Shown: in pieces, positions 1,078-63,913 of the stretch
How positions within the stretch are numbered: the first letter of the stretch is position 1
How the letters are laid out: each line of letters starts with the position of its first letter
Source: Malacoraja senta
Taxonomy: Eukaryota
Assembly (NCBI GenBank): GCA_038087875.1
Contig: CM075989.1
Location: 6,634,001 to 6,698,000, forward strand
Direction of reading: 5' to 3'
DNA: 64,000 nucleotides
Position numbers and translations under genes: made by a program
Notes under the pieces: model-generated
Database searches by the model: none
Seen by the model: only the letters and a program-made list of their open reading frames with translations
What the model was told of the DNA's origin: nothing

Positions 1078-1397
1078 TAGCCCTGTCCCACGGTACGAGT
1101 TCATTCCAAGAGCTCTCCCGAGTTGAAAAAAAATCAAACTCGTGGTAAGCACGGAGAATGAACATAGCGGGTACGTCGGAGCTCGGGGACGTCTCTTAGC
1201 GCTAACGGCAGGTACTCGGGAAGACTCGCTAACGGCAGGTAAGCACGGGAAGACTCGTGAAGATTTTTCAACATGATGAAAAATGTCCACGAGAGCCCTG
1301 AGTACCGACGAGCGGCCATTACCGTAAATCTCCGAGTTCGAATCAGGGCAAACTCGGGAGAGCTCTTGGAATGAACTCGTACCGTGGGACAGGGGTT
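1078..1397. mobile_element. Non-autonomous Harbinger/PIF-like MITE, subfamily A
   Basis: Long TIR CCCTGTCCCACGGTACGAGTTCATTCCAAGAGCTCTCCCGAGTT; TAA on both flanks (1075-1077, 1398-1400). Removing it restores the host SINE head. Confidence 0.85.
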
Positions 1398-1814: not shown

Positions 1815-2652
1815 GCACGCTGGCATAGCGGAAGAGCTACTGCCTTAAAGGCCTGTCTCACGAGTCTGCGGTCATTGGCGGCGAAACGGGAAGAATCTAC
1901 CGCTCCTGGGCCGCCATAGACCGCGCACTCGGTCAAACGCACAATTCCGGGGCCGTGCGGCGTTGTTCCCAACACCACACGGTGTTAAAATAAAACCAAC
2001 ACTGTTCAAAAAGATGTCCCTACCGCACAGCCTCCGCCAGTGAGCGCCGTGCGTCGAACTTGCACCGCCACAGCCTCCGCCAGTGAGGCACGACTGCCGG
2101 CACGGCCGCCGCCACAGCCACCGCTACAGCGCCGCGATCAGGACGGCCGCCGCCACAGCCCCGCAGATCCAAAATGATGTCATCGCAGTCGGCCCGCCCT
2201 TTTTTTTACTTACCACAAGCACGTGGGACCAGCCGTATTTAAATCACTCGGCCCCCGCGCAGCATCCGTGCGGCGCTCCCGTGGCTTAGGCTCGGCGCTC
2301 TCGCCGTTGCCGTGCGGTCCACTCTACAGGCGAAGCCGCGCTTCACCGCCGATGACCGCAACACCGTAAGACAGAGCCTTTACAGCACTAGAGACCCAGG
2401 TTCGATCCCGACTACGAGTGCTGTCTGTATGGAGTTTGTACGTTCTCCCTGTGACCTGCGTGGGTTTTCTCCGAGATCTTCTGTTTCCTCCCACACTCCA
2501 AAGACGTACAGCATTGTAGGTAAATTGGCTTGGTATAAATGTAAATTGGCCCTAGTGTGTGTCGGATAGTGTTAATGTGCGGGGATCGCTGGTCAGTGCA
2601 GACTCGTTGGGCCGATGGGCCCGTTGTATCCCTAAGCTAAATTAAACTAAAC
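1815..2652 (+). mobile_element. HE1/V-SINE-type tRNA-derived SINE interrupted by a MITE
   Basis: A box TGGCATAGCGG, B box GGTTCGATCCC, V-domain GGAGTTTGTACGTTCTCCC, (CTAAA)n tail. Confidence 0.85.
1848..2379. mobile_element. GC/CpG-rich Harbinger-like MITE, subfamily F, inserted in an HE1-type SINE
   Basis: Imperfect TIR AAGGCCTGTCTCACGAGTCTGCGGTCATTGGCGG / CCGCCGATGACCGCAACACCGTAAGACAGAGCCT; TTA duplicated (1845-1847, 2380-2382). The empty site is the SINE consensus TGCCTTACAGC. Confidence 0.8.
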
Positions 2653-6476: not shown

Positions 6477-6658
6477 ATTTAAGAAGGAACTGCAGTTGCT
6501 GGAAAATCAAAGGTGGACAAAAATGCTGGGGAAACTCAGCGGGTGAGGCAGCATCTATGGAGCGAAGGAAATAGGCAACGTTTCGGCCCGAAACGTTGCC
6601 TATTTCCTTCGCTCCATAGATGCTGCCTCACCCGCTGAGTTTCTCCAGCATTTTTGTC
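6477..6658. mobile_element. Penelope-derived palindromic non-autonomous element with 15-bp TSD
   Basis: Near-perfect inverted arms of about 70 bp centred on TTTCGGCCCGAAA; TAACGTGAATAACAT at 6462-6476 and 6659-6673. Confidence 0.8.
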
Positions 6659-11436: not shown

Positions 11437-11735
11437 GCCAGAGGCCATAGCTTCAGAATAAAAGGACGTACCTTCAGAAAGGAGATGAGGAGGAATTTCT
11501 TTAATCAGCGGGTGGTGAATCTGTGGAATTCATTGCCACAGACGGCTGTGGAGGCCAAGTCAATGGATATTTTTGAGGCGGAGATTGACAGATTCTTGAT
11601 TAGTAAAAGTGTCAGGGGTTATGGGGAGAAGGCAGGAGAATGGGATTGAGAGGGAAAGATCGATCAGCCATGATTTAGTGTTGGAGTAGACTTGTTGTGC
11701 CGAATGGCGTAATTCTGCTCCTTGAATTTATTAAC
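11437..11735 (+). mobile_element. CR1 LINE 3' fragment
   Basis: RGHSFRIKG...FFNQRVVNLWNSLP and CR1 3'UTR. Confidence 0.85.
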
Positions 11736-11739
11736 ATAA

Positions 11740-12097
11740 AGCCCCTGTCCCACTGTACGAGGTAATTCAAGAGTTCTCCCGAGTTTTCCCCTGATTCGAA
11801 CTCGGAGAATGTCCATAGCGGGTCCATAGGAGTTCGTGGATGTCTTGTAGCGGCTCGTAATGCTAACGGTAGGTACTCGGGACATCCGGTAACTCGTGAC
11901 ATCCGGTAACATCCCTGCAAAAAATGTCCACGAGTAAAAAAATACTCGTGATGTAAAACAGTGTTACTTTTTACTCGTACGAGCCGCTACGAGACATCCA
12001 CGAACTCCAACGGACCCGCTACGGACATTCTCCGAGTTCGAATCAGGGGAAAACTCGGGAGAACTCTCGAATTACCTCGAACAGTGGGACAGGGACT
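11740..12097. mobile_element. Harbinger-like MITE, subfamily B, almost fully palindromic
   Basis: Inverted arms over 100 bp beginning AGCCCCTGTCCCACTGTACGAGGTAATTC; flanked by TAA and TTA. Confidence 0.85.
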
Positions 12098-12290
12098 TTA
12101 TGTTCCCGTTCCTGAACTTCTGACGTTCCATTAAATTCTACTTGTTTGGGTAAAAAAGCCCAAACGTGTCCTGGAGACACCAAGATTGGTGTGCTCCACA
12201 ATGGGTGTCTGACTGATGGAGAGACTTACTTTGATTCCTTGAGACTGTGGAACTTTCCTTTATTACCTGCTGTGATTTCTATGCTTTCAG

Positions 12291-12466
12291 AATCTCACGG
12301 CCTGTGCTTGTTTGAACATCGGCCCCATTAAGAACGCCACCGTGATCCCGGGGAAGTGTCCAAGTCCAGGATGTCAAGAGGCCTTCATGACCTTCATATG
12401 TGTGATGTGTGTTTGCAGTCTCATTGGAGCCATGGCCCAGACCCCCGCCATCATTATACTCATCAG
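12291..12466 (+). CDS. SLCO3A1: SLCO3A1 (OATP3A1)-like internal coding exon (end of Kazal-like loop and TM10)
   Basis: ttcAG acceptor and AG|GTAG donor. Translates NLTACACLNIGPIKNATVIPGKCPSPGCQEAFMTFICVMCVCSLIGAMAQTPAIIILIR, close to human SLCO3A1 NLTGCACL...NATVVPGKCPSPGCQEAFLTFLCVMCICSLIGAMAQTPSVIILIR (recalled). Confidence 0.95.
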
Positions 12467-12632
12467 GTAGGACCCTCTGCACACACCATGTTACGCAGGC
12501 TTGAACTGTGAACATAATTAGCTGCTCTTGGTCGCTCCAGTGTAGGGCGGATGTGGAGCCTTTCGAGAGGATGCAGAAGAGGTTTACAATATGTTGCTCG
12601 GATTAGACGGTATTAGTCATACGGAGAAGCCG

Positions 12633-18614: not shown

Positions 18615-18999
18615 GCTTCATTCCTCCTCCTCTCATCTTTGGCGCTGGGATCGACTCGACCTGTTTGTTCTGGACCACCATCTGCGGGGAGCTGGGGGGC
18701 CTGTATGTTATACGATAACGTGGTGTATCGCTACCTGTACATCAGCATCGCCATCACGCTGAAGACTCTGGCCTTCATCCTCTACACCACCACCTGGCAC
18801 TGTTTGAGGAGGAACGCCAAGTACATGCGAGACGACGAGGGGAACCTACAGCCATTGACAGCCAGTGAACTCTTTGTATCGACCCAAACGCTGGACACAG
18901 TGGGGAGGGACTCCGCTCAGCATCCCGTCACAAAAGACCAAATTCATCTACAACCTTGAGGACCATGAGTGGTGTGAAAATATGGAATCCGTCCTATAA
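18615..18999 (+). CDS. SLCO3A1: SLCO3A1-like terminal coding exon, with two apparent +1 frameshifts in homopolymers
   Basis: acAG acceptor. GFIPPPLIFGAGIDSTCLFWTTICGELG, shift in G6 at 18694-18699, ACMLYDNVVYRYLYISIAITLKTLAFILYTTTWHCLRRN...TLDTVGRD, shift near 18924-18935, KTKFIYNLEDHEWCENMESVL with TAA at 18997-18999. The last 20 residues match the human SLCO3A1 C-terminus as recalled. Confidence 0.93.
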
Positions 19000-20620: not shown

Positions 20621-20896
20621 AGGTGTAGGAAGGAACTGCAGATGCTGGTTTACACCCAAGTTAGAGATTCAAAATGTTGGAGTAACTCAGCGGGTCAGGC
20701 ACCATCTCTGGAGAAAAGGAATAGATGATGTTTCGGGTCTGAAGAAAGGTCTCGAACTGAAACATCACTGTTTCTTTTCTCCAGAGATGCTGCCTGACCC
20801 GCTGAGTTACTGCAGCGTTTAGTGTCTCTTGTGAATCATAGTTCATCATAGAAAGAGCCAGGGCCAAGATTTCTGGCCTGTGACGTTTTGTTTATT

Positions 20897-24404: not shown

Positions 24405-24689
24405 TGTAGGAAGGAACTGCAGATGCTGGTATAAACCGAAGATAGACACAAAAAGCTGGAGTAACTCAGCGGGACAGACAGCATCTGAGGAGGACAGGAA
24501 TGGGTGACGTCTCGGGTCGAGACCTTTCTTCTCAAGAAGGGTTCCGACCCGAAAAAGTCAACAATGCATTTTCTCCAGATATGTTGCCTGACCCTTCTGA
24601 AGAAGGGTCTCAACCGGAAACATCACCTATTCCTTTTCTCCTCAGATGCTGTCTGACCTGCAGAGTTAATCCAGCTTTTTGTGTCTTTC
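24405..24689. mobile_element. Penelope-derived element with inverted plus tandem modules and 14-bp TSD
   Basis: TAGGGAACTATAAG at 24391-24404 and 24690-24703; one reverse module followed by two forward modules. Confidence 0.82.
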
Positions 24690-25212
24690 TAGGGAACTAT
24701 AAGGTTGGGGAAATCTTCCAAAATGTAGCGGTCTCTGAATTACTGGATTCGAATATCAAATTCCTGTACAGGTTGGAGCACACAATGCGCTGCCAGAAAC
24801 TAGAATTGGACCAAGCCAACACTCTGAAAAGCACCAACGTTTTTTTTTAATTACATATTTTTTATTCTGAAACCCCTTTCACATTATGTTTACCTTGGCA
24901 TCCTCTGTAATTTAGAAATCTAGGAGCTATTTATTTTCCCATTCTGGTTTTGTGCCAACCAGCCTCTTCTGTCCCTATCTAGCTAATGATGATGGCACTG
25001 CATCAGCTTATAAAGCGCTGACATTTAAGGTACAAATTGAGCAAGGCTGGTGGAATCGCTCCTAAAATATAGTTGGGTGGTAGAATCTGGGGAAAGTTGA
25101 TCAGGTTTGGAGGGATATGGGCCAAACGCAGGCAGGTGGGACTATTGTAGATGGGACATGTTGGTCGGCGTGGGCAAGTTGGACCAAAGGACCCGCTTCC
25201 ACGCTGTCTTAG

Positions 25213-27278: not shown

Positions 27279-27460
27279 CTATCCCCAAATAGCGACATCC
27301 AGACTCCTGATTAGAGGAACCATTTTAATATCGTCTTCATTGATTCTTAAAGACCACATCAATTTCTTTGTTTGAAATCAATCAAAGCTGATGGGGATAA
27401 TTCCTGTTCTCACATTTTATAAACCTTTTTTTTTGTTGCACCATCTCCAGTGTTAAGTTA

Positions 27461-27991
27461 AGGGGCTGTCCCACTTGGGCGACCTAATTGGCGAGTTTAG
27501 AAGAGTTTTGAAAAAATGTCATGTTGAAGACTTCCTTCAACCTCCTTCGACTATGTTGAAGACCAGCTTCGACTAGCTAGGACTAACTTCGGGAAAATTG
27601 GACACCGAATAGTGGAGAGGGAAGACGACCTCCTTTGATCTCCTTCGACCTCCCTTCGACAATGATGAAGACCGTCTATGACTACCTTCGACTACCCTCG
27701 ATTACCTACGACTAACATGCCGACCTATTACGACCTACTACGACTAAACCTACGAGTAAAAAAAGTATCGATTTTTTCCCATGGCGACCTTTTTTTACTC
27801 GCGGGCATTTTTTAACATGTTGAAAATACGCCGCGACCTAGCTGAGGCCTCGAGTACATGGGAACTACTCTCGAGCATGAAGGAGAGTTACAAAGACCTC
27901 CTACAACCTCGTGTCGACCATGCTGCGAGTATGAGTCGAGGACAAACTCGCCAGTACTCACGGATTAGGTCGCCCAAGTGGGACAGCCCCT
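27461..27991. mobile_element. Harbinger-like MITE, subfamily C
   Basis: Perfect 28-bp TIR AGGGGCTGTCCCACTTGGGCGACCTAAT; TTA TSD (27458-27460, 27992-27994); internal CGAC-containing repeats of about 10 bp. Confidence 0.9.
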
Positions 27992-28384
27992 TTACTCCTT
28001 TACATAAAGGATATACCGAGATTAGAACCGTTCACAGGTCAACATGCGGGTCAGTTCAAAATGTGTCCCTTCATAGGACAAGACGTATACCCCTTCTGAC
28101 TCACTTTTTAAAGAGACTTACATGGAGCAGAATTAACATCATTACTTTGTTCTTCACTCCAGATGCTTCAGCATTTATTGTGCAAATGATATTTTGGTGT
28201 CCGTATCCTAAGGACCTGTTTCTCCACTCGTGCTTGGTCATTTTACAAATGACCCCAAATTGCATTGTAGAGTAATAAATGTCTCCTCCTCATCCCCATT
28301 TAAAATGCGCATCAATAATAAAAATTCAAATTACCACAAAAGACAAGAGAAGTTCACTCACAATGTTATCACTGTCCACGGCAA

Positions 28385-28697
28385 GGTGGCGCAGCGGACG
28401 AGTTGCTGCCTTACAGCGCCAAAGACCCGGGTTCAATCCTGACTACGGGTGCTGTCTGCGTGGAGTTTTTACATTCACCACATGACCACGTGGGTTTTCT
28501 CAGGGTGCTCCGGTTTCCTCCCACATTCCAAAGGCATGCAGGTTTGTAGGTTAGTTGGCTTCGGTAAGAATTGTAAGTTGCCCCTTGTGTGAGGATAGTG
28601 TTAGTGTATGGGGATTATCTGATCGGTGTGGACTTGGTGGGCCGAAGGGACTGTTCACATGCTGTATCTCTAAACTAAACTATAACCAAACTAAACT
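28385..28697 (+). mobile_element. HE1/V-SINE-type SINE
   Basis: Head, V-domain and (CTAAA)n tail. Confidence 0.88.
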
Positions 28698-31009
28698 GAC
28701 ACATTCAGAACCTGTGGTGCCTGACTGGCAGGTTTCCATTGCCACCAGTGTTTCCATTCTGGTGTCGATGTGACTACAGAGGAATTTGGACAGTCAGGGG
28801 GGTAATGATCCCATTGAGCTTGCAGTTTGGACCCGCTAACAGTCATCTTGGCCAGTCCCAGAATATTGGGCCACCAAGAGACCTTTGACTCATTTCTCCC
28901 TTCTCCTTTAGCGAGCCATCAGGAAGCAGCTCCTCCAAAGAGGAAGAGAGACAGCAGCCTCTCATTGTCCCATTAGACATGGGGCATGGACTCGGCAGCT
29001 CTTGTAGTCAGCCCTGGAAGCTGTGAACCTTGCCGAGACCACTCCACACCACAACACCCCCATACTCAGGACCAAATGTGTAGCTTGGGCAATACTTACG
29101 TCACACCGACCCAGTCTGCAGATGTTTCAAGTCATTGTTTTATACGCAAAGGTTGGTGGGTATATTGGATAAGTTGTCGGAGAAGGTAGTTGAGGCGGGT
29201 TTCATCATAATGTTCAAGAGACATTTGGACAGGTCTCTGGATAGGATAGGTTTCAAGGGACATGGGCCAAGTGTGGGCAGGGTTAATGTTTTACTATTTA
29301 TGCCACCGCCATGTATGGGACTCCAAATCTAATACAGGAAGCAGGAGAAATGTACAGCCATGCGCTGTAGCGATTGACCATAGAATGAGCCCTGTTCCCT
29401 AAGGTTATACCGGCCATGCTATCTGAAGATAAAAGAAAAGGAGGTTGATGTGGGAGTGTTTCTGAGTGGAACATAAATGCCAGGATTTATTTCTTGGGCC
29501 GTACCTTTTCATGACCCGACCTGAATCGTCACTCCAGAGATGCTGCCTGACCCTCAGTGTTACTCCAGCACCTGGTGCCTTTTTCTGTAAGGCAGCATCT
29601 GCAGTTCCTCGTTTCTACGTGCGACATTCACAGTTGCTGGCTTGGCCCAGTGATTAGACAACCAGGAGAATGGAACCACCGGCAGCTCCTGGTGATTGTG
29701 TTCTGTGACGCTGCTGCAGGTGAGACAAAGGAGGGGAGCAAGCAATCAACTCCACACAGCGCTGTTGTTAGTCACAGCGACACCAGTTACCGCGACTCAT
29801 CTCTCCATGGCTGCAGGCAGTTCTGCCTATCGCTTAACCACGAGTGCAAATTCTTAATTAGCTGCCTGTCACAAACAGCGAGCAGCAGGATGACTTGGGA
29901 ATCGTTTTCCCTGAGAAATTTATGCAGGAGTTGTTTTGAAGAATGTACCCCTCCCTCAGTCTGCCTTTGTCCCATCCCCCAACACAAACCAATGCGCTCC
30001 TTGCATCCGTTTAGTTTTTTAGTTTAGTTTAGAGATACAGCACGGAAACAGGCCCCTCGACCGGCGATCCCCGCACATTAACACTATCCTACACACTCTA
30101 GGGACAATTTTACATTTATACCAAGCCAATTAACATACAAACCTATACGTCTTTGGAGAAGCGATTCCCCATGTGATTGGCACCAGGCTGCATGCAAATG
30201 TAAAGCTCAAAGCATCCTGCATACTTTGAAACGATGATGTGGGTATTGAGGTAGAAAGCAGCGCTCTCCTGGTGCGAGATGAATTCATTAGTCTATCAGG
30301 TAGTTGGAAGAATATTCAACCTCATTAATTATGGAGTCTACCACCACAGAAACAGGCCCTTCGGCCCAACAATCATAGCTAATCCCATTTGCCCGCATCA
30401 CTCAAAACATTTTGAATCCATGCATCTTGTCCAAACCTATCAATCGCTACTTTAAAAATACCTAATGTTTAGTTTAGTTTAGTTTAGTTTAGAGATACAG
30501 CGCTGAAACAGGCCCTTCAGTCCACCGCATCCACGCCAACCAGTGATCCCCATACACTAACACTATCCTATACACTAGAGGCAATATTTTACCGAAGCCA
30601 ATTGACCAACAAACCTGCATGCCTTTGGAGTGTGGGATGAAGCAGGAGAACCCAGGGTGTGCTACCATGCCGCCCAATGTCTTGGCCTCCACAGCCATCA
30701 GTGGCAATGAATTCCACATATTCACCATCCACTGGCTAAAAGAATTTCCTTGACATCTCCGTTCGAATGTGAAATCCCTTTTATTCTGAGGCTGTGCCCT
30801 CTGGTTCTACACTCTCCCATCATCGAAACATCTTTTCCGCATGCGCTCCATCTAGGGAGAGGTGGAGGAGTACCCAGGCTCTTCCGATCCTAGTCTTGAT
30901 AGAGCAAGGGCAAGTTGCTTGCATTATTGAGTAGAGAGGTCATCTTATATCTGAAGAGTATTGACTGCACTTAGGTCCAAAAGATTGGAGTCACATATAT
31001 GGAAGATGT

Positions 31010-31209
31010 NNNNNNNNNNNNNNNNNNNNNNNNNNNNNNNNNNNNNNNNNNNNNNNNNNNNNNNNNNNNNNNNNNNNNNNNNNNNNNNNNNNNNNNNNNN
31101 NNNNNNNNNNNNNNNNNNNNNNNNNNNNNNNNNNNNNNNNNNNNNNNNNNNNNNNNNNNNNNNNNNNNNNNNNNNNNNNNNNNNNNNNNNNNNNNNNNNN
31201 NNNNNNNNN
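31010..31209. other. Assembly gap of 200 N
   Basis: Run of N; contiguity across it is not established. Confidence 0.99.
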
Positions 31210-31940: not shown

Positions 31941-32160
31941 TAGACACAAAAAGCTGGAGTAACTCAGCGGGACAGGCTGCATCTCTGGAGAAAAGGAATG
32001 GGTGACATTTCAGGTCGAGCCCTTTCTTCAGACAGTCTGAAGAAGGGTCTCGACCCCAAAACATCACCCATTCCTTCTCTCCAGAGATGCTGCCTGTCCC
32101 GCTGAGTTACTCCAGCTTTTTGTGTCTATCTTCGGTTTAAACCAGCATCTGCAGTTCCCT
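31941..32160. mobile_element. Penelope-derived head-to-head palindromic element
   Basis: Arms meet at TTCTTCAGAC-A-GTCTGAAGAA. Confidence 0.8.
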
Positions 32161-43856: not shown

Positions 43857-44082
43857 TGTGTAGGAAGGAACTGCAGATGCTGGTTTAAACAGAAGATAGA
43901 CACAAAATGCTGGAGTAACTCAGCGGGACAGGCAGCATCTCTGGACAGAAGGAATGAGTGATGTTTTGGGTCGAGATCCTTTTTCAGTCTGAAGAATGGT
44001 CTCGACCCGAAACACCAACCATTCCTTCTGTCCAGAGATGCTGCCTGTCCCACTGTGTTACTCCAGCATTTTGTGTCTACCT
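43857..44082. mobile_element. Penelope-derived head-to-head palindromic element (further copies near 670-838, 2652-2800, 4640-5015, 17716-17860, 20622-20825, 24085-24250, 39215-39340, 46265-46445, 48310-48460, 54005-54255, 63486-63645)
   Basis: Arms meet at TTCAGTCTGAA; both arms carry the same variant CTGGACAGAAGG / CCTTCTGTCCAG. Confidence 0.8.
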
Positions 44083-44564
44083 ATGGTTTCAACTCAGATG
44101 AGTAGTGGTTAGATCACGCCCAGACCCATAAGCTTATGAAAATGCCACAACCATCCACGGCTCCAAAACGGATCAACTTCTAACTCCTCATCTTATTCCC
44201 CCTGTTGGGACAATATCTGGCTGAAGAAACATTATTTACAAAAATGCCACTCCATTTTCAACTCTTCCCTTGTGCGCTTTGCATTTGTGATTAGCCATTT
44301 ATTGATCTTCCGTACTGAGCCTGATTTAATGGCACTGTAGATGGCAAATAAATGACTGCGGTATGATTTAATAGTCCTTTTCAAAAAGAAAAATGATTTG
44401 ACTTAATTAATTAGAGGAACTCAAACACAGCAGAATGGATTTCCATCAATAGTTCTCGAGTTTGGTCTCAGGGGAGCCAGGGAAATACAACACTGCAATG
44501 CACAAACTACGAACAACTTACTCCAGCTGCCCAGTCAGGAGCCAGCGCTGATATTTATTAAGAC

Positions 44565-45378: not shown

Positions 45379-45506
45379 GAGGTGTTCAAAGCAACTGCAG
45401 AATTTATATCCATGTTTTTAAACGTAAAAAAATAAATCTGGAATTGAAGCTAGAGGAGTTCCTGATTAGAAGTGGTTTACATAAGGGTATAAGGAATGGT
45501 GCCAAT

Positions 45507-45960
45507 GGTGTGGGCAGTGGGCAGGTGCTATAGACCTGCACGGGAAGGTGGACGCTCCCGCCCCCACGAGTCTCGGGCAGATGGGGCTCGTCAGCCTGGG
45601 AAGGCAGTCCATCTAGGAGAGGGAAAACTCTGATTTAAAACCTCCATTGCCTTGTGGCCATATCCAGTCATGGAAAAGGCTCCAGGAGTAAACCACAAGA
45701 TTTATTCTGGAGTCGGAGCCCCTAAGGCAGTTCGTCGTTGCCTACAACCTCGCTCTGGCAGCTCCTGCGACGGCGCTGGTGCCAAACTGTAACGGCCCTG
45801 CTGTTCCTTTGGACCGATCAGCGACGTGGAGAGGGGGACGTGCTGCATGGGCAACAGCCTGTCCTCCATATAACATCGCCCAGGCTTGCATCCGACAAAC
45901 TAGGATGCATCACCCATGGTCAGTCATGACCGAGGGGGGGGGGGGGGGGGGGCCTACTAC
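45507..45960 (+). mobile_element. Short non-autonomous retroposon, probably RTE-clade derived
   Basis: Imperfect TSD GAATGGTGC(C/G)AAT (45494-45506, 45967-45979, extendable 5' to about 19 bp); CTACTAC tail; internal GGCAGTCCATCTAGGAGAGGGAAAACTCTGATT resembles RTE 5'UTRs (recalled). Confidence 0.55.
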
Positions 45961-46524
45961 TATACAGAATGGTGCGAATATTCAAGAGAATGGCATCAAG
46001 GGTGAGTAACTGCAGTTACTTGGAGACTTGGGTTTATTCTCCAAAGGCTGGAGAAGGTTGTATGGTGAGTTATTGAAAGGGTTTAGAATTATTAATTGAA
46101 TAAATTCAGAGAAACAGTTCCCACTGCCTGCACATTCCCCACTGACTCATACACCATCTGACTTGCAAGTGTGGAGGCACAAGAGACAGCAGGTGCTGAA
46201 AGCAGACAGGAGAAACATACAAAGTGGCCGGAGAAACTCAGTATGTCAGGCTACAGATATAAATTGAACTCTACCAGTGGCATAGATAGACATAAAATGG
46301 TGGAGTAACTCAGCGGGTCAGGCAGCATCTCTGGGGAAAAAGGATGGGTGATGTTTCAGGTTGAGACCATTATTCAGACCTTAACAAGGTCTGAATTACT
46401 CCGCTTTTTGTGTCTACCTTCGGTGAACTGCAGTTCCTTCCTACACATTATTGCATTGATTCTGGGTTCTACAGGGAATTAGGGGAATCTCAGAGGGGAA
46501 TTTAGGATGATGAATGCCATTCTA

Positions 46525-47974
46525 CAGTGCATTCAGAAAGTATTCAGACCCCTTCACTTTTTTCACATTTTGTTACGTTACAGCCTTATTCTAAAATGGA
46601 TTATATTCATTTTTTTTAATCATCAATCTACACACAATACCCGATCATAAAAAAAGCGAAAACAGGTGTTTAGAAATTTTTGCAAAGTAATTAAAAAGAA
46701 AAAACTGAAATATCACATTTACATAAGTACATCAGACCCTTTACTCAGTGTTTTGTTGAGGCCCCTTTGGCAGCGATTACAGCCTCAAGTCATCTTGGGT
46801 ATGATGCTACAAGCTGGGCACACCTGTATTTGGGTAATTTCTCCCATTCTTCTCTGCAGATCCTCTCAAGCTCTGTCAGGTTGGATGGGGAGCGTCGATG
46901 CACAGCTATTTTCAGGTCCCTCCAGAGATGTTCGATCGGGTTCAAGTCCGGGCTCTGGCTGGGCCACTCAAGGACATTCACAGACTTGTCACGAAGCCAC
47001 TCCTGCGTTGTCTTGGCTGTGTGCTTAGGGTCGTTGTCCTGTTGGAAGGTGAACCTCCGCCCCAGTCTGAGGTCCAGAACGTTCTGGAGCAGGTTTTCAT
47101 CAAGGATCTCTGTACTTTGCTCCGTTCATCTTTCCCTCGATCCTGACTAGTCTCCCAGTTCCTGCCGCTGAAAAACATCCCCACAGCATGATGCTGCCAC
47201 CACCATGCTTCACCGTAGGTATGGTATTGGCCAGGTGATGAGCGGTGCCTGGTTTCCTCCAGATGTGACGCTTGGCATTCAGGCCAAAGAGTTCAATCTT
47301 GGTTTCATCAGACCAGAGAATCTAATTTCTCATGGTCTGAGAGTCCTTTAGGTGCCTTTTGGCAAACTCCAAGCGGGCTGTCATGGGCCCTTTACTGAGG
47401 AGTGGCTTCCATCTGGCCACTCTACCATAAAGGTCTGATTGGTGGAGTGCTGCCGATATAGTTGTCCTTCTGGAAGGTTCTCCCATCTCCACAGAGGAAC
47501 TCTGGAGCTCTGTCAGAGTGACCACCGGGTTCTTGGTCACCTCCCTGACCAAGGCCGTTCTCCCCCAATTGCTCAATTTCATCTCTGGAGGGACCTGAAA
47601 ATAGCTGTGCATCGACGCTCCCCATGCAACTTGACAGAGCTTGAGAGGATCTGCAGAGAAGAATGGGAGAAATTACCCAAATACAGGTGTGCCAAGCTTG
47701 TAGCGTCATACCCAAGAAGACTTGAGGCTGTAATCGCTGCCAAAGGTGCCTCAACAAAATACTGAGTAAAGGGTCTGAATACTTTGTGACATTTAAGTTA
47801 TTTATTTTTAATTACTTTGCAAAAACCTCGAAACATCCGTTTTCGCTCCTTCATTCTGGGGTATTGCGTGCAGATTGATGATAAAAAAATGAATTGAATC
47901 CATTTTAACACAAGGCTGTAACGTAACATAAAGTGGAAAAAGTGAAGGGGTCAGAATACTTTCTAAATGCACTG
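46525..47974 (-). mobile_element. Tc1-family DNA transposon, rearranged: 5' end replaced by an inverted copy of the 3' end
   Basis: TA|CAGTGCATTCAGAAAGTATTCAGACCCC ... GGGGTCAGAATACTTTCTAAATGCACTG|TA termini; about 400 bp inverted arms; internal transposase remnant. Confidence 0.93.
46745..47578 (-). pseudogene. Tc1 transposase pseudogene (DD34E), N-terminally truncated, with stops and a frameshift
   Basis: Motifs [69 protein letters not shown]; 34 residues between the second D and E; in-frame stop at 47322-47324. Confidence 0.92.
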
Positions 47975-48801
47975 TACATCTGATGGAGAACTGTGCCTGT
48001 TTGTTGCTGTGACTCGGGCAATCAGTTTAAACCGTCTGTACTCCATTTTAACATTGGACTGCACCAGAATCTGCGCCATATAAGTGCTGCAGGAGGAATA
48101 AAGGAACAATTTATGCGGATTTAAAATCCCTCCATGACCTTCATTCCATCAGGCTTCAGAGGTTTCACGAGTCCTTTGTTCCCGGGTGTTCTCTCCAAGT
48201 GAAGTGCAAGCTGCAAAGTGTTGATTCTGCCAGGGTTATGCAGCTTATGGAGAGGGAGGTGACCCACAGTGATTAGAAGGGTGCAGAATAGCAAACAGAC
48301 ATCAACTGAAGATGGACACAAAACGCTGGAGAAACTCAGCGGGACAGGCAGTATCCCTGGAGAGAAGGAATGGGTGACGTTTCAGGTCGAGACCCTTCTT
48401 CCTCGACCCCATTTTATGTCAATCTTCAGTTTAAACCAGCATCTGTAGTTCCTTCCTGCACAAACATCATCTGATATTTTCTCCAAATTAAATTCTCCTC
48501 AGCAGCACCAGTGCAAGATTTGCCGTCAAAGAGTCGACTTCCGAAGAAGAGGTTGTACACAGATTGTTTTCTCAGGAATGTTGGCGGTAGAGGGGAGATT
48601 TGATAGAAGGCTACAAAATGATGAAAGGCATAGATAGGGTAGACAGTCAGAACCTTTTCCCCAGTGTGGAAATGTCCAATACTAGAGGGCGTAGCTATAA
48701 GGTGAGAGGGGGAAAATGTAATGGAGATGTACAGAGCAAGTTTTATCTATTATTTATCTGAGCTCATCCCACTTGCTTGACTTTGGCAAACATCTCACCA
48801 A

Positions 48802-49141
48802 TGGGCCTGTCCCACTTACGCAACCCTTTCGGCGACTGCCGGCACCCGTCATAGGTCATTGCAGGTCGGCGAAAATTGTCAACATGTTGAGAATTCAGCG
48901 GCGACCAGAAAGGCGCTACGGCCCTTTGTGCGACTGAGGAGACGACTCACGACCATACAGGCGACACCCTGGCGACATGTCGCGGGGTGAAGCCTGTATG
49001 GTCGTGAGTAGTCGCCCAAAGAGTCGTACCTTGTTCTGGTCGCCGCTGGATTTTCAACATGTTGACAATTTTCAACGACCTGCTGCGACTATGACGGGTG
49101 CCGGCAGTCGCCGAAAAAATCGCGTATGTGGGACAGGCCCA
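48802..49141. mobile_element. Harbinger-like MITE, subfamily D, palindromic
   Basis: TIR TGGGCCTGTCCCAC...GTGGGACAGGCCCA with long internal inverted arms (TTCGGCGACTGCCGGCACCCGTCATAG); flanks CAA and TAA. Confidence 0.85.
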
Positions 49142-57364: not shown

Positions 57365-57622
57365 CGGCACGGTGGTGCAGTGGTGGAGTTGCTGCCTTGC
57401 GGCGCCCGAGACCGACCCTGACCACGGGTGCTGTCTGTACGGAGTTTGTACGTTCTCCCTGTGCCCGCGTGGGCTTTCTCCGGGCGATCCGGTATCCTCC
57501 CACACGCCAAAGGCATACAGGTTTGCAGGTTAATTGGCTTGGTATGATTGTAAATTGTCCCTAGTGTGTGTAGGATGGTGCGGGTGTAGGGGGATCGCTG
57601 GTCGGCGCGGACTTGGTGGGCC
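57365..57622 (+). mobile_element. HE1/V-SINE-type SINE whose 3' end runs into a minisatellite
   Basis: Head and V-domain present; the tail stops at GGTGGGCC. Confidence 0.85.
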
Positions 57623-57632
57623 CCCTCTCTTC

Positions 57633-58338
57633 ACAGTACTCCACCCTCAGTACTCCACCCTCAGTACTCCACCCTCAGTACTCTCCCCTCAGTACTCTCC
57701 CTCAGTACTCTCCCTCAGTACTCTCCCTCAGTACTTTTCCCTCAGTACTCTCCCTCAGTACTCTCCCTCAGTACTCTCCCTCAGTACTCTCCCCTCAGTA
57801 CTCTCCCTCAGTACTCTCCCCTCAGTACTCTCCCCTCAGTACTCTCCCATCAGTACTCTCCCCTCAGTACTTTTCCCTCAGTACTCTCCCTCAGTACTCT
57901 CCCTCAGTACTCTCCCTCAGTACTCTCCCCTCAGTACTCTCCCTCAGTACTCTCCCCTCAGTACTCTCCCCTCAGTACTCTCCCCTCAGTACTCTCCCCT
58001 CAGTACTCTCCCCTCAGTACTCTCCCCTCAGTACTCTCCCTCAGTACTCTCCCCTCAGTACTCTCCATCAGTACTCTCCCCTCAGTACTTTTCCCTCAGT
58101 ACCCTCCCCTCAATACTCCACCCTCAATACTCCACCCTCAGTTCTCTCCCCTCAGTACTCTCCCTCAATACTCTCCCCTCAGTACTCTCCCCTCAGTACT
58201 CTCCATCAGTACTCTCCCCTCAGTACTCTCCCCTCAGTACTCTCCCCTCAGTACTCTCCCCTCAGTACTCTCCCCTCAGTACTCTCCCCTCAGTACTCTC
58301 CCTCAGTACTTTTCCCTCAGTACTCTCCCCTCAATACT
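57633..58338. repeat. Minisatellite with 13-14 bp unit CAGTACTCTCCC(C)T
   Basis: About 50 tandem units. Confidence 0.97.
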
Positions 58339-58799
58339 CGTCTCTCGCAGGTAAACAAAACATGCCCTGGATATAGACCGCAGGCACGTTTGCTGATGCC
58401 ACACTTGGTCCACGTCTCGGCAGCAGATTCTTGCAGCCATTTGAACCACGCGTGGTGGGGAATGTTGGTGGAGATGGGGCCCAGTTGGCACGTGGTGCCT
58501 GCCTGATGCCAGGACCGAGCGCAAGTTGGCACTTGTGCCGGGTCTCATTGCCATGGACTGCACGACAAAGCCATTAACGTTATGAAGGGAACATGCCGAT
58601 CTGGTGGAATCCGTTTAATCACGAGAAGTAACTTTGAGTGAAGGGTCCAAGAACATCTGAAAGTATCCAGTGAAGGTTGAAGGAGATTAGGAGCGATGAC
58701 TCATGCAGACTCACGGAGAGATGAGGAAATACACTGGAGACAAATCTCTAAACCTGACAGTTTAAAACTCCATTTAAGTTAATTTCTTCAATTTCTTCT

Positions 58800-60080
58800 G
58801 CCCTCAGTATCTTCTCCCTCAGTATCTTCCCCTCAGTATCTTCCCCTCAGTATCTTCCCCTCAGTATCTTCCCCTCAGTACTCCACCTTCCAGTACTCCC
58901 CTATCAGTACTCTCCTCTGAGTACTCCATCCTCAGTATCTTCTCCTCAATACTCTCCCTCAGTATTTTCATAGAGTCATAGAGTGATACAGTGTGGAAAC
59001 CAACCCTTCGGCCCAACTTGCCCATACCAGCCAACACGTCCCAGCTGTAGGAGTCCCACCTGCCCGTGTTTGGTCCGTATCGCTCCTAAGCCTTTCCTGT
59101 CCATGTACCTGTCTGTTTCTCAAAGGTTGGAATAGTCCCTGCCTCAACTACCTCCTCTGGCAGCGTGTTCCACACACCCACCACCCTTCCCCTCATCCTT
59201 TATCCTCAGTACTCATCCCTCAGTACTCCCTTCAATACCCTGTCTTTAGTACTCCACCCTCAGTACTCTCTCCCCTTAGAAACATTGAAACATAGAAAAT
59301 AGGTGCAGGAGTAGGCCATTCGGCCCTTCGAGCCTGCACCGCCATTCAATATGATCATGGCTGATCATCCAACTCAGTATCCTGTACCTGCCTTCTCTCC
59401 ATACCCCCTGATCCCATTTAGCCACAAGGGCCACATCTAACTCCCTCTTAAATATAGCCAATGAACTGGCCTCAACTACATTCTGTGGCAGAGAATTCCA
59501 CAGATTCACCACTCTCTGTGTAAAAAATGTTCTTCTAATCTCAGTCCTAAAAGATTTCCCCCTTATCCTTAAACTGTGACCCCTTGTTCTGGACTTCCCC
59601 AACATCGGGAACAATCTTCCTGCATCTAGCCTGTCCAACCCCTTAGGAATGTTGTACGTTTCTATAAGATCCCTCCTCAGTCTTCTAAATTCCAGTACTC
59701 TCTCCCCTCAGTACTCTCTCCCCTTAGTACTCCACCCTCAGTAATCTCTCCCCTTAGTACTCTCTCCCCTTAATACTCTCTCCCCTTAGTACTCCACTCT
59801 CAGTACTCTCTCCCCTTAGTACTCTCTCCCCTTAATACTCTCTCCCCTTAGTACTCCACTCTCAGTACTCTCTCCCCTTAGTACTCTCTCCCCTTAGTAC
59901 TCTCTCCCCTTAGTACTCTCTCCCCTTAGTACTCTCTCCCCTTAGTACTCTCTCCCCTTAGTACTCCACCCTCGGTACTCTCTCCCCTCAGTACTCTCCC
60001 CTCAGTATTGCCCCCCTCAGTACTCCACCCTCAGTACTCTCCCCTCAGTACTCCACAGTACTCTCCCCTCAGTACTCCCT
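58800..60080. repeat. Further blocks of the same minisatellite (variants CAGTATCTTCCCCT, TAGTACTCTCTCCCCT) interrupted by two CR1 fragments
   Basis: Blocks at about 58800-58966, 59204-59278 and 59693-60080. Confidence 0.93.
59279..59693 (-). mobile_element. CR1 LINE 3' fragment inserted in a minisatellite
   Basis: LDAGRLFPMLGKSRTRGHSLRIRG...FFTQRVVNLWNSLPQ. Confidence 0.9.
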
Positions 60081-60547
60081 TCAGGACCCTGCCCTTAGTC
60101 CTCTCCTCACAGTCCTGTGTCCTCAGTCCTCTCACCTCAGCAGTACGAGCGTGCAGTGCAACGACGGAGGTTGTCCGTTTGAACGGCACCTCTCACACCG
60201 TGACTGCGACCCCAAGGTCGTTTTCCCCTCCTCCTTCCATCTGAGTTCAGCCTAAAACTGTTGAGATGTAATAAAACCAGTGAAGTTTCCAGGGCAGCAT
60301 GACCCGGAGCTCATAAATACTATGCTTATTAAATCTGAGCAAACAGCAAGAAAGTAATAAGTACAAACACGACAAATAATACAACACACGACGTAAAGTG
60401 AAATGATTGAAGATTTGTGGGGCCACGGAGAAAGGTTCGGGGCAGGAATGTGAAATTTGTCCAGTTCACAGTCTGTACAGATTTGATGGTCTCGGTCGTC
60501 TCCTTTGACCATTTGATTTTCTAATAACTATTTTCTGTTAACTTGGG

Positions 60548-61895: not shown

Positions 61896-62399
61896 TCATG
61901 TTCGGCATGGTCAGTGTGGGCCGAAGGGCCTGTTTTTGTTCTGTACTGTTCTACATTCTATCTCCTTGTATGGGAAAAGCTGGTGGAATCAGCTCCACAT
62001 ATCTATTGATTACATTGTTGTTACCAATCGAGTGGCAAGTTACAAAAACAGTGACAACGTCTCTTCAAAGGGCATGAAAGCATTTAATTTTAGATTCCAA
62101 TCAGGTAGTCACAGTTGAGAATCAATTCACTGAGGCTTATTTCAGCCGAAATGCCATGAGTGCTGGTGGGCAAAGCTTTGATCTCCTTAGGGTGCCCGAG
62201 CTTAAACTAAACACATCCAGTGGGCTGTGAATGGGAACTGATTCTTCGGTTTCTTTAAAGCAGCAAGGTCAGCAAAGTAAAAAAAAAACTGCGGCAATCT
62301 TCAATGCAAAGAGAAAAGGCTGAAGATGCTCAGAAGGTCAGGCAGCATCTACGGAAAGGAAAACAGAGGCAAGGCTTCAGGTGAAAGACTGCATGGTCG

Positions 62400-63647: not shown

Positions 63648-63913
63648 ACGGCCTGTCCCACTTGGGCGTCATTTGCGCGTCACGCAGGTGGCGCACGAAG
63701 ATTTCGTGAATCCCAAAATCCTAGGGCGCTGCGCACGACCGTGCGTCACTGCCTACGTCACCACGCACCATGCGCGCGTAATGCACGGTATGCGCGCGTA
63801 AATTACACGCCATGTGAGTATCACTAGCGTCACGATGTGCGCGTCGTGCGTCGTGACACGTAAATGATGTCGCGTAAATGACGGGCAAATGACGCCCAAG
63901 TGGGACAGGCCCT
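63648..63913. mobile_element. Harbinger-like MITE, subfamily E
   Basis: TIR GGCCTGTCCCACTTGGGCGTCATTTGC; TGA duplicated (63645-63647, 63914-63916). Inserted in the tail of a Penelope-derived element. Confidence 0.85.

What the first reader, a model, noticed from the sequence alone, without database searches (positions are those of the whole stretch)
27458..27994. Six different MITEs share one terminal signature: a diversified Harbinger-like system
Seen: elements at 1078-1397, 1848-2379, 11740-12097, 27461-27991, 48802-49141 and 63648-63913 all begin with 5 variable nt plus CTGTC(C/T)CAC. Their 3-bp flanks are TAA/TAA, TTA/TTA, TAA/TTA, TTA/TTA, CAA/TAA and TGA/TGA. For three of them the TSD is confirmed by restoring the host repeat. 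Interiors are largely different (A and B are related). Known: 3-bp TWA/TNA TSDs with such termini are typical of PIF/Harbinger. Inference: one transposase lineage mobilises many non-autonomous families here, at about one per 10 kb; I cannot name them.
Basis: partly seen in the sequence, partly recalled or inferred. Interest (0 to 1): 0.7.

Follow-up and report, generated by a model that had tools for sequence, protein, structure and literature searches.

The report
Harbinger-type mini-transposons in a cartilaginous fish
Six short, gene-less jumping DNA elements in a shark, ray or skate genome share the same end signature and 3-base insertion scar; they look like ordinary non-autonomous Harbinger-type transposons, abundant but not a new kind of system.

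Summary
The six elements are real and at the stated coordinates. Eleven of 12 ends carry CTGTCYCAC at nt 6-14; the window holds 13 such motifs against 1.35 expected. Four of six have identical 3-bp flanks, and empty paralogous sites confirm the 3-bp duplication for two of them, not three. Correction: four elements (1078, 11740, 27461, 48802) share an internal ~30-bp core with a palindrome, so they form one clan; only 1848 and 63648 have unrelated interiors. The host is an elasmobranch. The 27461 family is very abundant in four organisms, favours C|TNA targets, shows CpG decay, and this insertion's right junction is shared with two of them. It is therefore an old burst, not a fresh one. TSD, TIR and target fit PIF/Harbinger (PHIS) Tourist-like MITEs; Kolobok, Chapaev3, NuwaI, Pangu, ISL2EU and Spy fail a test. 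No autonomous partner was found, so transposase identity and 'one lineage' are inferred. Dfam and Repbase could not be searched. No earlier finding of this scan matched this DNA. New members of a known kind; low interest.

The parts
27461..27991 (.). MITE D (531 bp), focus of the finding; 28-bp perfect TIRs (27461-27488 / 27964-27991); interior rich in short CGAC repeats; no Pfam hit in the long ORF tested over it
   Evidence: very high copy in four organisms, about 4% from the family's majority letters
27458..27460 (+). left copy of the TTA target-site duplication of D (right copy 27992-27994)
   Evidence: loose ends of other copies pile up at 27458 and 27460
27798..27826 (-). shared internal core of the clan in D (TTTTCAACATGTTGAAAA palindrome plus flank; one base differs in this copy, many family copies restore the perfect palindrome); the match to C extends to 27751
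   Evidence: (tables 3 and 7)
1078..1397 (.). MITE A (320 bp), TAA/TAA flanks, 44-bp perfect TIR match from nt 4; clan core at 1265-1293; closest to C
   Evidence: TSD not confirmable by an empty site in the window
1848..2379 (.). MITE B (532 bp, 63% GC), TTA/TTA TSD, ~41-bp TIRs at 78%, variant core CTGTCTCAC / CTGTCTTAC; inserted in the head of an abundant SINE-like repeat; interior unrelated to the other five
11740..12097 (.). MITE C (358 bp), fold-back with ~120-bp arms (94%), flanks TAA/TTA, at the 3' tail of a LINE-like repeat about 190 bp upstream of an SLCO3A1 exon; carries half of the clan core (11919-11979 matches D)
48802..49141 (.). MITE E (340 bp), whole-length fold-back (81%), flanks CAA/TAA, clan core twice (48874-48895 and 49051-49078)
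63648..63913 (.). MITE F (266 bp), TGA/TGA TSD, 33-bp TIR match at 97%, TIR nearly identical to D over 21 nt, interior unrelated; inserted in the 3' part of an abundant retroposon

Best explanation
These are non-autonomous, Tourist-like MITEs of the PIF/Harbinger (PHIS) superfamily in an elasmobranch genome. SHOWN: TIR-bounded elements of 266-532 bp without a detectable protein domain; a conserved TIR core at nt 6-14; insertion with a 3-bp TNA duplication; a bias to C before TNA; a shared internal core in four of six; very high copy number of family D in four organisms; the D insertion is older than the split from two of them; the copies are decaying at CpG. INFERRED from the known family mechanism: an autonomous Harbinger element elsewhere in the genome, present now or in the past, supplied a DDE_Tnp_4 transposase and a Myb/SANT-like protein. 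The Myb-like protein bound the TIR or subterminal DNA and brought in the transposase, which cut the element out and inserted it with a 3-nt stagger at TNA. Because nt 1-5 vary while nt 6-14 do not, recognition probably rests on the CTGTCCCAC core and the cut falls at a fixed distance from it (inference). Elements A, C, D and E descend from one ancestor through deletion, repeat expansion and fold-back duplication (C and E are largely inverted copies of one end). F uses the D-type end with another interior; B probably belongs to a sister Harbinger family. The burst is old; present activity is not shown.
For: TIR core and 3-bp flanks; empty-site proof of 3 bp for B and F. In four runs of four organisms, 28,294-30,775 contigs lay on D, with summed depth of 1e5-1e6 against 6-140 on the flank. 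Left loose ends pile at 27458 (156-204 contigs per run, consensus ending GCC before TTA) and 27460 (208-279 contigs, consensus ending G(A/T)CTA before A), i.e. C|TTA and C|TAA in 4 of 4 runs. Changes are mostly C>T and G>A; 8 of 21 majority differences in D restore a CpG. Clan core. Definitions: TWA TSD, TIRs mostly under 60 bp, first nt usually A or G for PIF/Harbinger, and C|TNA|G for NuwaII (PMC4482050); two-protein mechanism, extended target preference and Tourist MITEs (PMC2836001). PIF-Harbinger is listed among whale shark repeats (PMC8455134).
Against: No autonomous partner found. No Harbinger domain in 263 ORFs scanned with Pfam (the 150 longest of 211, plus 113 shorter ones in unique DNA, 12 overlapping) or with a Harbinger profile over six frames (best E 2.9). 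No elasmobranch name among the best 120 of 3,626 Harbinger-like proteins, most of them unnamed, which is weak evidence. Two of six flank pairs are imperfect (C, E). Three of 12 ends start with T. Only 5 of 60 inter-element end pairs pass the Repbase rule of at most 1 mismatch over nt 1-11. The loose-end consensus is a plurality (overall agreement 0.33-0.36), the 27458 group cannot show G at -1 by construction, and right-end groups were not displayed. Harbingers were reported absent from the elephant shark (PMC9179366).
Confidence: 0.8

Rival explanations
1. Harbinger-type, but served by several distinct transposase families: the core at nt 6-14 is a superfamily-level signature and B, F and the A/C/D/E clan each had their own autonomous partner. 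This is compatible with the best explanation except for the 'one lineage' step.
For: B has a variant core and links to no other element by the Repbase 1-11 rule; B and F interiors are unrelated to the clan; TIRs diverge beyond nt 15. Recalled, from no call: fish and frog Harbinger MITEs often have five loose terminal bases followed by a motif ending in CAC at about nt 12-14.
Against: D and F share 20 of 21 terminal nt; A, C, D and E share an internal core; cross-mobilisation between related Harbinger families is documented (Ping/Pong, PMC2836001).
Confidence: 0.4
2. The elements are MITEs of Zator or another superfamily that also makes 3-bp TWA duplications.
For: Zator-1 of amphioxus has 33-bp TIRs and TAA/TTA TSDs (PMC12905397); Chapaev3 has TWA TSDs (PMC3014272). 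No transposase was linked here.
Against: Chapaev3 TIRs begin with CAC, which none of 12 ends do. Zator ends begin with GG (recalled, no call), while these begin with A or T. TGA/TCA targets and the C|TNA bias fit PHIS better.
Confidence: 0.1
3. Kolobok or T2-like MITEs with TTAA targets, the reader having misplaced the boundary by one base.
For: The left junctions of D and B read TTAA followed by purines.
Against: Kolobok makes TTAA-specific 4-bp TSDs (PMC9587614). No element has a 4-bp duplication at any boundary tested; the empty sites of B and F show 3 bp.
Confidence: 0.03
4. An unclassified transposase group with its own end rule (free nt 1-5, fixed nt 6-14) moves these elements.
For: No published TIR with this core was found; no partner was identified.
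Against: Every structural feature tested falls inside described PHIS ranges. The literature library holds few TIR sequences, and Repbase and Dfam were not searchable.
Confidence: 0.07

Closest known systems
PIF/Harbinger group of the PHIS superfamily and its Tourist-like MITEs (Han et al. 2015, PMC4482050, parts 1-2 of 4 of the text read; Hancock et al. 2010, PMC2836001, Background and passages read)
   Same: 3-bp TWA-type TSD, short TIRs mostly starting with A, non-coding elements of 0.27-0.53 kb, very high copy number, signs of an extended target preference
   Different: One TSD is TGA (TNA rather than TWA); 3 of 12 ends start with T; no two-ORF partner demonstrated
NuwaII (C|TNA|G subgroup; most entries are Repbase Harbinger families of turtle, amphioxus, fish and Xenopus; PMC4482050 text and Table S7 rows)
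   Same: TNA duplication with C the commonest base before it; TIR lengths of 13-46 bp fit A, B, D and F; aquatic chordate hosts
   Different: NuwaII TIRs mostly start with GG, these with A or T; only 1 of 6 window sites is a full C|TNA|G (5 of 12 flanking positions match)
Harbinger-Snek of sea kraits (PMC8437027, passages; supplements not available) and Harbinger-1M_cIno (bioRxiv 10.64898/2026.05.26.728016, passages)
   Same: One Harbinger lineage giving many short non-coding derivatives that keep the ends and TSD and outnumber coding copies
   Different: Those are tied to coding elements and are young or active; here no coding partner was seen and the D copies are several percent diverged and shared across species
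Coral CMITEs (PMC2872659, abstract only)
   Same: MITE families that share a conserved internal region while their TIRs differ
   Different: CMITEs are linked to piggyBac-like elements; here the shared core is only about 30 bp and the TSD is 3 bp

Membership tests
MITE (non-autonomous TIR element) | Short, TIR-bounded, non-coding, with TSD | tested here: met
   266-532 bp, TIRs 28-120 bp; no Pfam hit in the long ORFs overlapping them that were scanned; TSD shown for B and F
MITE (non-autonomous TIR element) | High copy number | tested here: met
   For D only: about 28,000-31,000 contigs per run and depth about 1e4 times the flank in four organisms (the tool warns this is not a copy number). 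The other five were not tested.
PIF/Harbinger | 3-bp TSD, TWA | tested here: met
   4 of 6 identical 3-bp pairs (TAA, TTA, TTA, TGA), 2 with one mismatch; empty sites for 2; TTA and TAA head the loose-end groups of D. One TSD is TGA, so the rule is TNA rather than strict TWA.
PIF/Harbinger | TIR mostly under 60 bp, first nucleotide usually A or G | tested here: met
   4 of 6 have TIRs of 28-47 bp, 2 are fold-backs; nt 1 is A in 9 of 12 and T in 3; definition
PIF/Harbinger | Autonomous partner with DDE_Tnp_4 transposase and Myb/SANT ORF between the same TIRs | not testable with these tools
   No host genome held; none in the window; none in viral or metagenome contigs
PIF/Harbinger | Extended target-site preference | tested here: inconclusive
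   Plurality G at -3 and C at -1 in both left-end groups of 4 of 4 runs; 5 of 12 matches at +/-1 and 5 of 12 at +/-3 in the window (read); no per-position frequencies available
PIF/Harbinger | Precise excision, two-protein requirement | not testable with these tools
   Needs a transposition assay (mechanism from PMC2836001)
NuwaII | C|TNA|G target | tested here: inconclusive
   C commonest at -1 but 1 of 6 window sites is a full match
NuwaII | TIRs mostly start with GG | tested here: not met
   0 of 12 ends start with G; definition
NuwaI / Pangu / ISL2EU / Spy | TSD CWG / ANT / AT / none | tested here: not met
   TSDs are TNA, 3 bp; definitions
Kolobok | TTAA 4-bp TSD | tested here: not met
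   No 4-bp duplication in 6 of 6; definition
Chapaev3 (EnSpm) | TIRs begin with CAC | tested here: not met
   0 of 12 ends; definition
Zator | 3-bp TAA/TTA TSD | tested here: met
   Shared with Harbinger, so not discriminating
Zator | Zator transposase in the partner | not testable with these tools
   No partner found; the GG start of Zator TIRs is recalled only and is not met here
One superfamily by the Repbase rule | Same TSD length and nt 1-11 aligned with at most 1 mismatch | tested here: inconclusive
   5 of 60 inter-element end pairs pass, linking A-C, D-F and E-F; B links to none; tested on decayed copies, not consensus sequences

The most novel reading that the evidence does not exclude
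The six elements are the visible part of a large, unrecorded burst of one Harbinger-type lineage in elasmobranchs: many families of about 1e4 copies each, together a few percent of the genome, hidden in the 'unclassified' repeat fraction of genomes annotated with only 0.9-2.9% DNA transposons. It would follow a distinctive cis code: free nt 1-5, a fixed core at nt 6-14 acting as a ruler for the cut, and a conserved internal palindrome as a second binding site for the Myb-like protein, served by a partner that may be a so far unnamed PHIS clade.
Probability: 0.25. Interest if true: 0.45.

Novelty: new member of a known kind. Interest (0 to 1): 0.22.

Why it matters
As biology it is ordinary: Harbinger lineages routinely spawn many MITE families. 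Two modest points remain. A 2022 survey found Harbingers absent from the elephant shark and said other cartilaginous fishes must be tested (PMC9179366); these elements, with the automated listing in whale shark, indicate that elasmobranchs carried a prolific Harbinger-type system. Second, the six elements fill 3.7% of this window while batoid genomes are annotated with 0.93-2.90% DNA transposons in all (bioRxiv 10.64898/2026.10.27.761883), so MITE content may be under-annotated; one window cannot establish that. Shared insertions such as D could serve as presence/absence markers for elasmobranch phylogeny.

Tried and rejected
No host genome was available, so no genome-wide scan of TIR pairs was possible. 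A generic inverted-pair scan of the window gave 3,801 pairs, nearly all inverted SINE/LINE copies; a relaxed motif scan (TNA + 5 nt + core with up to 2 mismatches) gave 25 hits, 11 of them known ends, and no seventh pair. Rfam: 0 hits. TIR pattern in viral contigs: 0. TIR pattern in metagenomes: 68 hits, 0 of 68 with a convincing partner TIR or similarity to the window, judged chance. Transposase-motif patterns in viral contigs: 0, 4, 11 and 0 hits, none of the 15 Harbinger-like. Genome contigs: 10 hits, 1 a true DDE_Tnp_4 fragment on a 1-kb contig without the TIR core (L088). Harbinger alignments against viral contigs: 0 of 77 and 1 of 96 stretches, the one (L096) weak and without TIRs. A tblastn hit of one Harbinger protein at 61936-62112 (E 0.003, 1 of 116 queries) was not supported by the profile search and is treated as chance. 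Protein searches for an elasmobranch Harbinger transposase: none named among the 116 hits, the best 120 of 3,626, or 10 clusters; uninformative because most hits are unnamed. No empty allele of D was seen in the four runs; left-flank cover was nearly absent and the tool filters records, so this shows nothing. The high CpG content (o/e 1.09-1.53 against 0.45) first suggested youth; one search shows instead CpG-rich ancestors in decay. Literature: the TIR core with 'Harbinger' and 'terminal inverted repeat' gave 0 papers; supplements of PMC4482050, PMC9179366 and PMC9392472 gave no occurrence; figures with TIR logos are not held; supplements of PMC8437027 and of bioRxiv preprints could not be seen and may hold matching TIRs; the zebrafish Harbinger3 paper was not held. 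Other searches. Earlier scan notes: nothing on this DNA or genome; the eight word hits concern other systems and were not used.

Full report
1. Observation. All six elements are at the stated coordinates: A 1078-1397, B 1848-2379, C 11740-12097, D 27461-27991, E 48802-49141, F 63648-63913 (my letters, in window order). CTGTCYCAC occurs 13 times in 64 kb against 1.35 +/- 1.22 in 100 dinucleotide shuffles; 11 are ends of these elements. The twelfth end (B right) reads CTGTCTTAC. Over the 12 ends, nt 6-10, 13 and 14 are invariant, nt 1 is A (9) or T (3), nt 2-5 vary, and conservation falls off after nt 15. Four of six elements differ between their own two ends within nt 1-5. TIRs: A 44 bp perfect from nt 4, B about 41 bp at 78%, D 28 bp perfect, F 33 bp at 97%; C and E are fold-backs.

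Target duplication. Four of six have identical 3-bp flanks (TAA, TTA, TTA, TGA); a random pair of 3-mers is identical with frequency 0.02 in this window, giving P about 2e-6. For those four no other boundary (shift -3 to +5) gives a perfect duplication of 3-9 bp. C (TAA/TTA) and E (CAA/TAA) have one mismatch. Paralogous empty sites settle the length for two: B interrupts a SINE-like head whose other copies read GCTGCC-TTA-CAGC, with TTA on both sides of B; F interrupts a retroposon segment and both flanks share TGA where most paralogues have TGT.

Interiors. With 20 nt trimmed from each end, 5 of 15 pairs align far above 100 shuffles each: A-C z 21.5, C-D 12.5, A-D 8.0, D-E 6.7, A-E 5.6; the other ten reach at most z 2.5. 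The shared piece is about 30 bp, consensus ATTTTCAACATGTTGAAAAATGTCCACGAG, present in A, D and twice in E, with its right half in C. Its central 12-mer, with up to one mismatch, occurs 4 times in the window, all inside A, D and E (the motif was chosen after seeing the data). So there is one clan of four plus two singletons. F shares 20 of 21 terminal nt with D.

2. Setting. The window holds the last two coding exons of SLCO3A1 (12291-12467 and 18644-18996). The last exon is 78-87% identical to shark and ray proteins (8 hits) and 64-68% to tetrapod and lungfish proteins (4 named hits and 1 unnamed), so the host is an elasmobranch. That it is a skate is only my recollection of the SINE sequences. 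A, B and C lie upstream of the 12291 exon, presumably in an intron; D, E and F lie downstream of the gene. About 45% of the window is repeated within itself. The 150 longest of 211 ORFs and 113 shorter ORFs in unique DNA gave a reverse-transcriptase fragment, two Tc1 transposase fragments, the OATP exons and four hits below their cut-offs, but no DDE_Tnp_4 or Myb domain. A profile of 32 Harbinger transposases found nothing in six frames (best E 2.9).

3. Family D elsewhere. Fourteen runs labelled with seven organisms hold at least half of D's sampled words. Four runs of four organisms were laid on 27280-28380: 28,294-30,775 contigs each, nearly all on the element, with summed depth of 1e5-1e6 against 6-140 on the right flank. 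The tool warns that this is no copy number; the ratio still implies an order of 1e4 copies. The largest class of contigs is 90-95% alike, C>T and G>A changes dominate, and D differs from the majority letter at about 21 of the listed places (4%; the table was cut, 139 rows not shown), 8 of which restore a CpG. Contigs from two organisms bridge D's right end and continue through the unique flank with 13 differences and 9 gaps over about 385 nt, and 8 differences and 1 gap over about 410 nt. This insertion is therefore older than the split from those organisms. Left loose ends pile at two places in all four runs: at 27458 (156-204 contigs, TTA matched, consensus before it ending GCC) and at 27460 (208-279 contigs, consensus ending G(A/T)CTA before the matched A). 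The favoured targets are thus C|TTA and C|TAA with G at -3. Limits: these are plurality consensuses (agreement 0.33-0.36 over 30 letters), G at -1 is excluded from the first group by construction, and right-end groups were among 1,940 rows not shown.

4. Mechanism. The anatomy is that of non-autonomous cut-and-paste elements (shown). The enzyme is inferred. In PIF/Harbinger a Myb-like protein binds the TIR region and brings a DDE transposase to it; insertion makes a 3-bp TSD within an extended preferred target; and the superfamily generates Tourist-like MITEs (PMC2836001, Background read). Han et al. define PIF/Harbinger by TWA, TIRs mostly under 60 bp and a first nucleotide usually A or G, and NuwaII by C|TNA|G and GG starts (PMC4482050); most NuwaII rows are Repbase Harbinger families. 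The elements fit PIF/Harbinger in ends and lean to NuwaII in target, so I file them as PHIS/Harbinger-type without naming the subgroup. The fixed core with free nt 1-5 suggests recognition at nt 6-14 and a cut at a set distance; the internal palindrome may be a second binding site or only an ancestral remnant. Both are untested inferences. C and E probably arose by inverted duplication of one end. Confidence in Harbinger-type mobilisation is 0.8; whether one or several autonomous families served the six is open (about 0.4 for several), since B has a variant core and passes the Repbase nt 1-11 rule (PMC4455052) with no other element, and only 5 of 60 end pairs pass.

Rivals. Kolobok needs TTAA 4-bp TSDs: not met. 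Chapaev3 has TWA but CAC ends: not met. NuwaI, Pangu, ISL2EU and Spy fail on TSD. Zator makes TAA/TTA TSDs and cannot be excluded without the partner, though its ends, as I recall, begin with GG.

5. Search for the partner. No host genome is held. TIR patterns found nothing in viral contigs and 68 chance hits without partner TIRs in metagenomes. A real DDE_Tnp_4 fragment from a genome-contig scan (1 of 10 hits) opened the Harbinger protein family, but no listed hit was named from an elasmobranch and viral contigs gave no element with TIRs. The defining two-ORF test is therefore unrun, not failed.

6. Novelty. One Harbinger lineage with many short derivatives is documented (sea kraits, PMC8437027, passages; C. 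inopinata preprint, passages). I found no paper with this TIR core or on these families, but Repbase and Dfam were not searchable and high-copy repeats like D are likely in automated libraries. Harbingers were reported absent from the elephant shark with a call to test other cartilaginous fishes (PMC9179366, passages), while PIF-Harbinger is listed for the whale shark (PMC8455134, passages). The scan's earlier notes hold nothing on this DNA. Verdict: real, abundant, old Harbinger-type MITEs; new members of a known kind; interest 0.22.

Noticed in passing
window 46523-47976 (-): Decayed Tc1-like transposon of about 1.45 kb with long TIRs starting CAGTG and TA flanks; transposase in frameshifted pieces (HTH_Tnp_Tc3_2 at 47325-47672, DDE_3 at 46793-47125). 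The 199-nt inverted arms at 46732-46930 / 47580-47778 (96%) reach into the coding region, suggesting an internal inverted duplication.
   Followed up: partly
window 12291-12467 and 18644-18996 (+): Last two coding exons of SLCO3A1; the last exon aligns in three frames (shifts near 18690 and 18925), i.e. assembly errors or a damaged copy, despite 87-100% protein identity to shark orthologues.
   Followed up: partly
window, about 29 copies, e.g. 7996, 27246, 56868: The 3' tail of the abundant SINE/LINE repeats contains AAGGGCCTGTTTCCA, which resembles the MITE end AGGGCCTGTCCCAC (9 identical nt, then a one-base shift). Probably coincidence; unexplained.
   Followed up: no
window 11733-11739 and 12098-12104: The 7 nt flanking element C are perfect inverted copies (AACATAA / TTATGTT), so its 'TSD' is inverted rather than direct; a palindromic target or conversion between the fold-back arms could explain it.
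   Followed up: partly
window 57574-60200: Long low-complexity tandem arrays of CTCAGTACTCTCC-like units giving open frames of up to 310 codons without Pfam hits.
   Followed up: no
window, many sites, e.g. 2651-2770, 6539-6635, 20686-20806, 24440-24690, 31963-32106, 43883-44093: Frequent closely spaced inverted pairs of the same retroposon 3' segment, forming short hairpin-like doublets.
   Followed up: no
window 31010-31209: A 200-N assembly gap.
   Followed up: no
L088:60-608: A eukaryote-type Harbinger transposase fragment (about 90% identical to unnamed proteins and 70-78% to cnidarian ones) on a 1-kb contig of a bacterial genome bin; probably host contamination.
   Followed up: partly
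window 45480-45950: A GC-richer, CpG-containing stretch that is unique in the window and may be another repeat family; no Pfam hit.
   Followed up: no
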